Below the pieces are notes generated by a model, which ran no database searches, was not told the origin of the DNA, and saw only the letters and a list, made by a program, of their open reading frames with translations. A stretch of 31,564 bases of DNA. It comes from Thermoplasmata archaeon. GTDB taxonomy: Archaea > Thermoplasmatota > Thermoplasmata > UBA10834 > DTMW01. Position 1 is the stretch's first letter; every line of letters begins with the position of its first letter. Position numbers and translations under genes: made by a program. Where the stretch lies: NCBI GenBank assembly GCA_029858465.1, contig JAOUEZ010000001.1:1-31564 (forward strand), given 5' to 3'. Positions 18,841-20,106 of the stretch are shown one piece after another.

Positions 18841-20106
18841 TTACGGTTCGAGGTTCACGGGCAGCTTCACTGCTCTTTTCCTTGTCGGGTTGATGTACCG
18901 AATCGTCTTCATCTCCCATGTTCGGATAATTATGTACCCCTTGCCGCTAGATACGATGTAATTCGGAGATAATGCGACTTTTCCTAGACCTTCTGGGGCG
19001 TTTACCACGAAATGCGGTATCGCAAGCCCGGATGTATGCCCTCTGAGGTTCTCGATTATCTCTATCCCTGATTCTACACTTGTTCTGAAATGCGAGATCC
19101 CTTTGACCTTCTTGCAATGGAAGAGGTAGTAGGGCTTGACACGTATCCTCAATAAGGTCTGACACAGCTTCCTTTGGACGACTACGTGATTGTTTACACC
19201 TGCGAGAAGCACTGATTGATTCCCAAGCTGAATTCCTGCCCGCGTCAGAAAATCGCAGGCCTTTGCAGATTCCTTGGTTATCTCTCGCGGATGGTTGAAC
19301 TGCACGTTCAGATAGAGAGGATGGTGCTTCGACAGCATCTTGCACAGCTGAGAGGTGATCCTGTATGGAAGAGTCACCGGACTCCTGCTGCCCAGCCTCT
19401 TGATCTCAACTGTGGGTATCTCATCAAGCTGGCTGAGAAGCCAATGAAGGCGATCATCATCCAGCATCAGGGCGTCTCCGCCAGTTATGAGGATATCTCT
19501 TACCTCCGGACTTTCTCGGATGTAATCGACAGCTTCCTGAAGCTTCGCATCCGATGTATGAATATCCCTCTGTCCAATCAGCCGCCTGCGCTGACAATGC
19601 CTGCAGAACATCGGACATTGGTTTGTAACGTTTATGATCAATCTGTCAGGATATCTTCTGATGATGGCCTGCACAGGCGATGTGGTTGCCTCGCCCATAG
19701 GATCAACAGTCGCCTCCTCATCTAGAAGCTCATCGATGGATGGGACGCTCTGCGCACGGATGGGGCAATATCTGTCAGATGGATCTATCAGGCCAGCAAA
19801 ATAAGGAGATATTCCCCAGCGGAACTTCTTCCCGATCTTTTCGAAAGCCTTCTTCTCCTCGTCGTTGACATCAATGATCTTTCCCAGCCGGGATATCGTG
19901 TCTATCCTATTGTCGATTTGCCAGCACCAGTCGTTCCATTCCTTCTTGGACGCGCCCATCATTTCTCTGAGTGACGCCATTCTCGAATCGATAGCCTTTG
20001 AAATCTCGATACCGCTCGGAACATAGGAATTCTGGTATCTCATCCGTTCGCCATATCGTTTGAGCTCGTCTGCTCGGCGCAACGATATCCGCTTCTTAGA
20101 AACCAT
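18841..20106 (-). CDS. eam: Radical-SAM/PLP aminomutase of the KamA family, glutamate 2,3-aminomutase type
   Basis: CPMFCRHC (CxxxCxxC), RRYPDRLIINVTN, GNQSVLL, PLP Lys in NAPEGLGK. It has Lys and Asn at the positions of LAM Asp293 and Asp330 (FHCKKVKG, VNAP) and the N-terminal RISLxRAxELK seen in clostridial Eam. Confidence 0.82.
   Translation of the reverse strand: MVSKKRISLRRADELKRYGERMRYQNSYVPSGIEISKAIDSRMASLREMMGASKKEWNDWCWQIDNRIDTISRLGKIIDVNDEEKKAFEKIGKKFRWGISPYFAGLIDPSDRYCPIRAQSVPSIDELLDEEATVDPMGEATTSPVQAIIRRYPDRLIINVTNQCPMFCRHCQRRRLIGQRDIHTSDAKLQEAVDYIRESPEVRDILITGGDALMLDDDRLHWLLSQLDEIPTVEIKRLGSRSPVTLPYRITSQLCKMLSKHHPLYLNVQFNHPREITKESAKACDFLTRAGIQLGNQSVLLAGVNNHVVVQRKLCQTLLRIRVKPYYLFHCKKVKGISHFRTSVESGIEIIENLRGHTSGLAIPHFVVNAPEGLGKVALSPNYIVSSGKGYIIIRTWEMKTIRYINPTRKRAVKLPVNLEP

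What the first reader, a model, noticed from the sequence alone, without database searches (positions are those of the whole stretch)
18841..20106. Archaeal glutamate 2,3-aminomutase: candidate gene for beta-glutamate synthesis
Seen: a KamA-like radical SAM protein with Lys (codon near 19111) and Asn (near 19000) at the positions of lysine 2,3-aminomutase Asp293 and Asp330, plus the N-terminal RISL.RA.ELK extension. No ablB acetyltransferase, kamDE or epmA is adjacent. Known: those two substitutions distinguish clostridial Eam from LAM, and beta-glutamate is a compatible solute of several methanogens. Inference: this archaeon makes beta-glutamate, and automated pipelines would mislabel the gene as kamA/ablA. 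It may have been acquired from Firmicutes.
Basis: partly seen in the sequence, partly recalled or inferred. Interest (0 to 1): 0.65.

Follow-up and report, generated by a model that had tools for sequence, protein, structure and literature searches.

The report
Clostridial-type glutamate aminomutase in Thermoplasmata
This archaeal gene very probably encodes the radical-SAM enzyme that turns glutamate into beta-glutamate; this enzyme kind is already known from clostridia and, since 2022, from methanogens, so it is a new member in a non-methanogenic archaeal lineage.

Summary
ORF 18841-20106 (-) is an intact 421-aa KamA-family radical-SAM/PLP aminomutase. Lys332 and Asn369 sit where lysine 2,3-aminomutase has Asp293 and Asp330, and the protein carries the Eam-type N-terminal extension.

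It groups with named bacterial glutamate 2,3-aminomutases (100/100 support). It scores 133 bits better on the Eam model than on the AblA model, but stays below NCBI's cut-off (594 vs 650 bits).

The host is a Thermoplasmata MAG in which I found no mcrA, so it is probably not a methanogen. Among 401 Thermoplasmata genomes sampled, only its own small family (3 of 3) has this type. The sister family has Asp/Asp lysine-type paralogs.

A bacterial origin fits this distribution, but the tree does not resolve a donor (AU p = 0.49).

An archaeal glutamate 2,3-aminomutase was already characterised in methanogens (Tunckanat et al. 2022), apparently from a different, distant branch. This scan has also flagged Lys/Asn-type aminomutases on other DNA. 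So this is a new member of a known kind.

A stress-solute role is inferred from two things: cation/proton antiporter neighbours in two archaeal gene arrangements, and c-di-AMP riboswitches upstream of bacterial relatives. Activity is untested.

The parts
18841..20106 (-). Gene for a 421-aa clostridial-type glutamate 2,3-aminomutase (Eam) homolog, stop codon included
   Evidence: ORF. TIGR04368 594 bits against AblA 461 bits. 2A5H E 6e-118. 100/100 clade with named Eams.
19957..20106 (-). Eam-type N-terminal extension (residues 1-50; K-R-x-I-S-L-x-R-A-x-E-L core)
   Evidence: Aligned to TIGR04368 from model position 2. Conserved in 126 Lys/Asn proteins and absent from Asp/Asp proteins.
20113..20117 (-). 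AGGAG ribosome-binding-like site 7 nt upstream of the ATG at 20106
   Evidence: Read directly from the sequence. It supports the long start over the 400-aa public gene call.
19594..19617 (-). Radical-SAM cluster motif C164-x3-C168-x2-C171
   Evidence: Invariant in the archaeal clade.
19588..19590 (-). Arg173, equivalent of LAM Arg134. Its role as alpha-carboxylate ligand is from my own knowledge of the LAM structure.
   Evidence: Alignment to 2A5H. Invariant in alignment A1.
19474..19482 (-). GGD motif (G209-G210-D211), shared with LAM
   Evidence: Alignment to 2A5H. Invariant in A1.
19111..19113 (-). Lys332 at the position of LAM Asp293 (specificity residue 1)
   Evidence: Lys in all 126 Lys/Asn-type proteins, Asp in 121 LAM-type proteins.
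19000..19002 (-). Asn369 at the position of LAM Asp330 (specificity residue 2)
18979..18981 (-). Lys376, equivalent of the PLP-binding Lys337 of LAM
20107..20359 (.). 253-nt divergent intergenic region shared with the antiporter gene. It presumably holds both promoters. No Rfam element.
20360..21655 (+). Divergent neighbour: cation/proton antiporter (Na_H_Exchanger type). The adjacency is conserved within the genus.
   Evidence: Synteny in L012 and L026.
17771..18736 (-). Downstream neighbour: CorA-like metal transporter. It has its own TATA-like box in the 104-nt gap, so it is probably a separate transcript.
   Evidence: Adjacency kept in L012 and L026.

Best explanation
The gene encodes a functional radical-SAM, PLP-dependent amino acid 2,3-aminomutase of the clostridial Eam type (EC 5.4.3.9). 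By analogy with lysine 2,3-aminomutase, a [4Fe-4S] cluster on C164/C168/C171 reductively cleaves SAM. The 5'-deoxyadenosyl radical abstracts a C3 hydrogen from L-glutamate held as an aldimine on PLP (PLP resting on K376), and the amino group migrates from C2 to C3 to give beta-glutamate.

Where LAM uses Asp293 and Asp330 to hold the lysine epsilon-ammonium, this protein has Lys332 and Asn369. These suit the gamma-carboxylate of glutamate.

Shown here: the sequence features, the family placement, and stable residence in an archaeal genome.

Inferred: the substrate and the physiological role. The most likely role (about even odds) is supply of beta-glutamate as an anionic stress solute accumulated with K+. 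The gene is probably monocistronic. It belongs to a small Thermoplasmata family with no mcrA found, and was probably gained by inter-domain transfer long ago.
For: - Catalytic motifs are intact, and Lys/Asn replaces Asp293/Asp330.
- The best family model is TIGR04368 (594 bits) against AblA (461) and EpmB (206). The whole archaeal clade scores 594-617 on the Eam model and 467-491 on AblA, while a true LAM gives the reverse, 509 vs 638.
- The Eam-specific N-terminal extension is present, and the C-terminus is short and free of the Cys cluster of LAM types.
- 15 of 20 positions that separate bacterial Lys/Asn from Asp/Asp proteins are in the Eam state.
- The ML tree separates a Lys/Asn clade from an Asp/Asp clade at 100/100, with the query inside the Lys/Asn clade.
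- It is 53-56% identical to proteins that NCBI names glutamate 2,3-aminomutase.
- It is archaeal, not a binning error. More than 17 kb of synteny is shared with two other assemblies, one titled Thermoplasmata archaeon. Orthologs were deposited in four archaeal records. Gene GC is about 0.50 against 0.49 for the genome.
- Role, archaeal context: the gene is next to a cation/proton antiporter here. In the 74%-identical long-form clade it lies two genes downstream of a different antiporter paralog. Only 5 such antiporter genes are in the genome.
- Role, bacterial relatives: a c-di-AMP riboswitch lies directly upstream of eam in 2 of 21 bacterial loci.
- Role, literature: eam is listed among genes controlled by Na+ riboswitches for osmoprotectants (PMC9337991). 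The methanogen Eam is tied to salt tolerance in the title of Tunckanat et al. 2022.
- Glutamate dehydrogenase is present, so glutamate supply is plausible.
Against: - No assay exists for any member of this archaeal clade.
- The score is below the curated TIGR04368 cut-off (594 vs 650), and the clade sits on a long stem (0.56 substitutions per site), so the substrate could have drifted.
- The residue next to the specificity Lys is Cys, as in LAM, not Ala as in 92% of bacterial Eams.
- The role evidence is circumstantial. The antiporter adjacency is seen in 2 of 4 archaeal arrangements only. The contig is rich in ion transporters in any case. Relatives come from hot-spring and sediment metagenomes, with no evidence of salt stress.
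- No regulatory RNA is present here.
- The Lys/Asn rule rests on one characterised clostridial enzyme, which I recall from memory because Ruzicka & Frey 2007 is not held.
Confidence: 0.75

Rival explanations
1. It is a true glutamate 2,3-aminomutase, but beta-glutamate is not a compatible solute here. It would instead be an intermediate of glutamate or amino-acid breakdown (for example to 3-oxoglutarate by a transaminase), or a building block for a beta-glutamyl compound.
For: - The order looks like an amino-acid-dependent heterotroph. No glutamine synthetase domain was found in the family or in 5 of 6 sister-family genomes, one of them closed.
- The sister family keeps two LAM paralogs without AblB, which suggests a catabolic rather than an osmolyte use of aminomutases in this order.
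- A bioRxiv paper attributes a glutamate fermentation role to the bacterial enzyme.
- Earlier notes of this scan propose catabolic and ligase-coupled uses in bacteria (not checked here).
- A class-III aminotransferase lies on the same contig (79-1413).
Against: - No transaminase, ammonia-lyase, ligase or CoA-transferase gene is adjacent in any of the four archaeal arrangements.
- The aminotransferase is 17 kb away.
- The neighbours are ion transporters.
Confidence: 0.3
2. It is a 2,3-aminomutase with the Eam pocket pattern, but it acts on a different acidic or polar amino acid (for example aspartate, 2-aminoadipate or glutamine), the archaeal clade having diverged in specificity.
For: - The score is below the TIGR04368 trusted cut-off.
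- The clade has a long stem branch.
- 5 of 20 discriminating positions are not in the Eam state, including Cys331 next to the specificity Lys.
Against: - Both specificity residues and their flanking motifs (FH-x-K-x-V-x-G and N-A-P-x-G-x-G-K) are the same as in named Eams.
- The N-terminal extension and the short C-terminus are shared with named Eams.
- No precedent for such a substrate in this family is known to me.
Confidence: 0.12
3. It is a lysine 2,3-aminomutase (AblA/KamA), as some pipelines label it.
For: JGI labels some orthologs lysine 2,3-aminomutase. Overall identity to 2A5H is about 47%.
Against: - Both lysine-binding aspartates are replaced.
- The AblA model score is below its cut-off and 133 bits below the Eam score.
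- No AblB is present.
- It is separated from all Asp/Asp proteins at 100/100.
- From memory: the clostridial Lys/Asn enzyme had no activity on lysine (Ruzicka & Frey 2007).
Confidence: 0.03

Closest known systems
Glutamate 2,3-aminomutase (Eam) of Clostridioides difficile and its bacterial orthologs (NCBIfam TIGR04368; Ruzicka & Frey 2007, PMID 17222594; paper not held, cited from memory and through reference lists)
   Same: - Radical-SAM plus PLP architecture.
- Lys/Asn at LAM Asp293/Asp330.
- The roughly 45-aa N-terminal extension, and a short C-terminus without the Cys cluster.
- 53-56% identity, and the same 100/100 clade.
   Different: - Archaeal host.
- A separate, long-stemmed subclade scoring 594-617 bits, below the 650-bit cut-off that bacterial Eams pass at 690-733.
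- Cys instead of Ala before the specificity Lys.
- Some clade members carry an extra C-terminal domain of about 160 aa with no family match.
- No riboswitch.
Methanogen glutamate 2,3-aminomutase (Methanococcus maripaludis C7; Tunckanat et al., Biochemistry 61:1077, 2022, PMID 35544775; text not held)
   Same: An archaeal enzyme reported to make beta-glutamate for salt tolerance. This is the same reaction and the same proposed role.
   Different: - By earlier notes of this scan it is a long form (about 600 aa) with a large extra domain (unchecked).
- Consistent with a distant branch: the best M. jannaschii match to the clostridial Eam model falls between E 1e-80 and 1e-40. The window protein gives 4e-179 and ordinary LAMs give below 1e-120.
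- I could not fetch a methanogen sequence, so there is no direct alignment.
- The present host has no mcrA that I could find.
Lysine 2,3-aminomutase (C. subterminale KamA, PDB 2A5H; methanogen AblA, TIGR03820)
   Same: Fold and chemistry: about 47% identity, E 6e-118. The cluster cysteines, GGD motif, Arg134 equivalent and PLP lysine are all conserved.
   Different: - Asp293 is replaced by Lys and Asp330 by Asn.
- LAM Cys268 is replaced by His, and there is no C-terminal Cys cluster.
- An N-terminal extension is added.
- No AblB partner.
- The sister family of the same order carries the Asp/Asp type, two paralogs per genome.

Membership tests
Glutamate 2,3-aminomutase, clostridial type (TIGR04368, EC 5.4.3.9) | Lys and Asn at the positions of LAM Asp293 and Asp330 | tested here: met
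   K332 and N369 in an ungapped alignment to 2A5H. Same flanking motifs as named Eams.
Glutamate 2,3-aminomutase, clostridial type (TIGR04368, EC 5.4.3.9) | Radical-SAM CxxxCxxC, PLP-binding lysine, Arg134 equivalent | tested here: met
   C164/C168/C171, K376 and R173.
Glutamate 2,3-aminomutase, clostridial type (TIGR04368, EC 5.4.3.9) | Eam-type N-terminal extension covered by the family model | tested here: met
   Model positions 2-403 are matched by residues 4-405. The R11/A12/E14/L15 core is conserved in 85-98% of 126 Lys/Asn proteins and absent in Asp/Asp types.
Glutamate 2,3-aminomutase, clostridial type (TIGR04368, EC 5.4.3.9) | Score at or above the curated equivalog cut-off (650 bits) | tested here: not met
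   594 bits. The whole archaeal clade scores 594-617, against 690-733 for named bacterial Eams. It is still the best model, by 133 bits.
Glutamate 2,3-aminomutase, clostridial type (TIGR04368, EC 5.4.3.9) | Falls inside the clade of named Eams, apart from Asp/Asp aminomutases | tested here: met
   The Lys/Asn clade has 100/100 support in the careful ML tree of 48 proteins. Its position within the clade is unresolved.
Glutamate 2,3-aminomutase, clostridial type (TIGR04368, EC 5.4.3.9) | Converts L-glutamate to beta-glutamate and does not act on L-lysine | not testable with these tools
   Needs an anaerobic enzyme assay.
Methanogen-type (long) glutamate 2,3-aminomutase (Tunckanat et al. 2022) | Long form with a large extra domain, orthologous to the M. 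maripaludis / M. jannaschii gene | tested here: inconclusive
   The query is 421 aa with no large extra domain. The M. jannaschii control matches TIGR04368 only between 1e-80 and 1e-40, against 4e-179 for the query. No methanogen sequence could be fetched for a direct comparison.
Lysine 2,3-aminomutase AblA/KamA (TIGR03820) | Asp293 and Asp330 lysine-binding pair; score at or above 525.4 bits; AblB partner for the osmolyte pathway | tested here: not met
   Lys/Asn instead of Asp/Asp. 461 bits. No AblB-type GNAT in the genome or in 40 relatives.
EF-P beta-lysylation enzyme EpmB (TIGR03821) | Score at or above 369 bits; short form; epmA partner | tested here: not met
   206 bits. No epmA-like neighbour.

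The most novel reading that the evidence does not exclude
A non-methanogenic Thermoplasmata family from hot springs and sediments acquired a clostridial-type Eam, while its sister family keeps two lysine-type paralogs. It uses the enzyme together with cation/proton antiporters as a K+/beta-glutamate stress-solute module. That would be a second, independent origin of beta-glutamate synthesis in Archaea. Some members have fused the enzyme to a C-terminal domain of about 160 aa with no known family, which may regulate it.
Probability: 0.3. Interest if true: 0.5.

Novelty: new member of a known kind. Interest (0 to 1): 0.3.

Why it matters
- It corrects an annotation. NCBI gives these archaeal proteins only a generic KamA name, JGI labels them inconsistently, and one public gene call cuts off the conserved N-terminus.
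- It suggests that beta-glutamate synthesis in Archaea is not limited to methanogens or to the methanogen-type enzyme. A clostridial-type Eam is stably resident in one Thermoplasmata family.
- The enzyme is a compact, possibly thermostable candidate for biocatalytic beta-glutamate production.
- The repeated adjacency to cation/proton antiporters gives a testable link between K+ homeostasis and an anionic solute.
- None of this changes what is known about the enzyme class.

Tried and rejected
I took contexts of metagenome relatives from the search for related loci instead.
- Neither Ruzicka & Frey 2007 nor Tunckanat et al. 2022 is held. I verified only their titles, through reference lists.
- A phrase search for the enzyme name failed because of the comma.
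- Methanogen link: no mcrA in the MAG or in 20 relatives.
- Beta-glutamine route: no glutamine synthetase found.
- Regulatory RNA: Rfam finds only a tRNA in the window.
- Donor of the transfer: the quick and careful trees leave the base of the Eam clade a polytomy, and the AU test does not reject bacterial monophyly (p = 0.494). 'From Firmicutes' is therefore not shown.
- C-terminal extension of the 578-589-aa relatives: no Pfam hit at E <= 1, no Atlas hit, and no homolog in the own genome.
- The GNAT at 26547-27470 as an AblB-like partner: rejected. There is no AblB-model match, and the gene is missing from the syntenic contig L026.
- I did not run a structure prediction. 47% identity to 2A5H already fixes the fold, and the tools return no coordinates for measuring the pocket.
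I only bracketed its distance through the control genomes.

Full report
**Observation**

The minus-strand ORF 18841..20106 is open and encodes 421 residues. Pfam finds Radical_SAM and the LAM_C domain. The only solved relative is lysine 2,3-aminomutase (LAM) of Clostridium subterminale, 2A5H (E 6e-118, residues 52-407). The alignment has no gaps around either specificity site.
- LAM Asp293 (QCD) lies opposite Lys332 (HCK), codon 19111-19113.
- LAM Asp330 (VVDAP) lies opposite Asn369 (VVNAP), codon 19000-19002.
- The cluster cysteines C164/C168/C171, the GGD motif, Arg173 (LAM Arg134) and the PLP lysine K376 (LAM Lys337) are intact.
- LAM Cys268 is His here. There is no cysteine after the PLP lysine, whereas Asp/Asp-type relatives carry 4-6.

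**N-terminus and start codon**

The N-terminal extension is real. The Eam model TIGR04368 is matched from model position 2 by residue 4. Among 126 Lys/Asn-type proteins, R11, A12, E14 and L15 are conserved at 85-98%. Asp/Asp-type proteins lack the segment. An AGGAG lies 7 nt upstream of the ATG at 20106. One public gene call (P0002, 400 aa) starts at Met22 and removes this conserved segment.

**Family placement**

NCBIfam ranks the models as follows:

| Model | Score (bits) | Cut-off (bits) |
|---|---|---|
| TIGR04368, glutamate 2,3-aminomutase | 594 | 650 |
| AblA | 461 | 525 |
| Arginine 2,3-aminomutase | 389 | not noted |
| EpmB | 206 | 369 |

- The close archaeal relatives score 596-617 on the Eam model and 467-491 on AblA. 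Named bacterial Eams score 690-733. A genuine LAM (P0123) gives 509 on the Eam model and 638 on AblA.
- Across 269 aligned relatives, the two sites are tightly coupled: 126 Lys/Asn, 121 Asp/Asp, and only a few mixed forms.
- Twenty positions separate the two groups: bacterial Lys/Asn proteins share a residue there (at least 85%) that Asp/Asp proteins rarely have (at most 10%). The query has the Eam state at 15 of them. These positions are not independent of phylogeny.
- A careful ML tree (48 proteins, LG+C20 PMSF) separates a Lys/Asn clade from an Asp/Asp clade at 100/100. The query sits in an 11-member subclade (100/100, stem length 0.56) inside the Lys/Asn clade.

**Host and distribution**

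- The window is the whole of contig C184 of a 1.45-Mb MAG that is 86% complete.
- The same-genus genome carries an 80%-identical ortholog. Its record is titled 'Thermoplasmata archaeon isolate JZ-2_201705_bins_135'.
- The order hcp, Lrp-type regulator, antiporter, Eam, CorA-like is kept over more than 17 kb in that genome and in a further metagenome contig.
- NCBI holds the ortholog in three Thermoplasmata records and one 'Euryarchaeota archaeon' record.
- Gene GC matches the genome. The gene is therefore a long-standing resident of an archaeal genome and not a binning error.
- No mcrA was found in this MAG or in 20 relatives, while the M. jannaschii and M. acetivorans controls rang. The organism is thus probably not a methanogen.
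- In 401 sampled Thermoplasmata genomes, only the window's own family (3 of 3) reaches 514-604 bits with the N-terminus covered. All others reach at most 502 bits and lack the N-terminus.
- The sister family of the same order has Asp/Asp LAM-type genes, usually two per genome, and no AblB.
- The own MAG has only one KamA-family gene.

**Origin**

The closest named proteins are bacterial, mostly Bacillota, at 53-56% identity. The patchy archaeal distribution fits an inter-domain transfer. However, the base of the Lys/Asn clade is a polytomy, and a tree with all bacterial Lys/Asn proteins held together is only 0.59 log-likelihood units worse (AU p = 0.494). A Firmicutes donor is plausible but not shown.

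**Role**

- The gene is flanked by a divergent cation/proton antiporter (20360-21655) and a CorA-like transporter (17771-18736). No AblB, kamDE or epmA is adjacent.
- A TATA-like GGTATATA in the 104-nt gap before the CorA-like gene suggests separate transcripts.
- In the 74%-identical long-form clade (L027, L079), Eam follows a cupin gene and a different antiporter. That antiporter is the ortholog of window 29758-31053.
- The genome has only five such antiporter genes, though three are on this contig.
- Two other archaeal arrangements (L028, L029) show no transporter.
- In bacteria, a c-di-AMP riboswitch lies directly upstream of eam in 2 of 21 loci scanned: Moorella L013 and L052.
- Published work lists eam among osmoprotectant genes under Na+ riboswitches (PMC9337991). 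It also reports induction of the Moorella gene under stress (PMC7835215).
- I therefore favour beta-glutamate as an anionic stress solute, at roughly even odds.
- A catabolic or building-block role is the main rival. This order seems to lack glutamine synthetase, has glutamate dehydrogenase, and keeps LAM paralogs without AblB in the sister family.

**Comparison with what is known**

- The 2005 review by Roberts stated that NMR had ruled out an aminomutase route in methanogens (PMC1224877).
- I confirmed that the paper exists, and its title, in three reference lists. The text is not held.
- An archaeal Eam is therefore already known.
- It appears to belong to a different branch. With the clostridial Eam model, M. 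jannaschii rings only between E 1e-80 and 1e-40, ordinary LAMs ring below 1e-120, and this protein gives 4e-179.
- I could not fetch a methanogen sequence for a direct comparison.
- I found no paper on Eam in Thermoplasmata.

**Verdict**

- The enzyme assignment is well supported by sequence (0.75), but there is no assay.
- The methanogen framing, the novelty for Archaea and the named donor are not supported.
- This is a new, divergent member of a known enzyme kind in a new lineage, of modest interest.

Noticed in passing
Proteins P0004-P0008 (578-589 aa); partial loci L027:1470-2741 and L079:2442-3215: A sister subclade (73-75% identical) carries a C-terminal extension of about 160 aa after the Eam domain. 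It has no Pfam match at E <= 1, no Atlas hit and no homolog in this genome. It could be a regulatory domain.
   Followed up: partly
Sister-family genomes, e.g. L005-L011 and L017-L025: Nearly every genome of the sister family has two Asp/Asp lysine-2,3-aminomutase paralogs, but no AblB-type acetyltransferase was found in 38 genomes. Their pathway context is unknown.
   Followed up: partly
Whole genome G000 and relatives G001-G008: No glutamine synthetase catalytic domain (PF00120) was found in the three genomes of this family or in 5 of 6 sister-family genomes, including a closed one-contig genome. All 14 control genomes rang.
   Followed up: partly
L013:1327-1465 and L052:562-691: c-di-AMP riboswitches (104 and 113 bits) lie directly upstream of bacterial eam genes (Moorella and a metagenome contig). 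This ties bacterial beta-glutamate synthesis to osmotic signalling.
   Followed up: partly
window 14671-15921 (-), 20360-21655 (+), 29758-31053 (+): Three of the genome's five cation/proton antiporter genes sit on this one 31.6-kb contig. The first and third are 57%-identical paralogs. ACR3, a CorA-like gene, PHO4/PhoU and TauE are also here, so the contig is rich in ion transport genes.
   Followed up: partly
window 26547-27470 (-): A 307-aa protein with two GNAT domains lies 6.4 kb from Eam. It does not match the AblB model and is absent from the syntenic contig L026.
   Followed up: partly
window 79-1413 (-): A class-III (omega/beta-type) aminotransferase of 444 aa lies 17 kb from Eam. This is the enzyme class that could act on a beta-amino acid, but I saw no linkage.
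   Followed up: no
window 20043-20106 (-): A public gene call for this protein (P0002, 400 aa) starts at Met22 and drops 21 conserved N-terminal residues.
   Followed up: yes
window 3465-3536 (+): One tRNA gene, the only Rfam match in the window.
   Followed up: no
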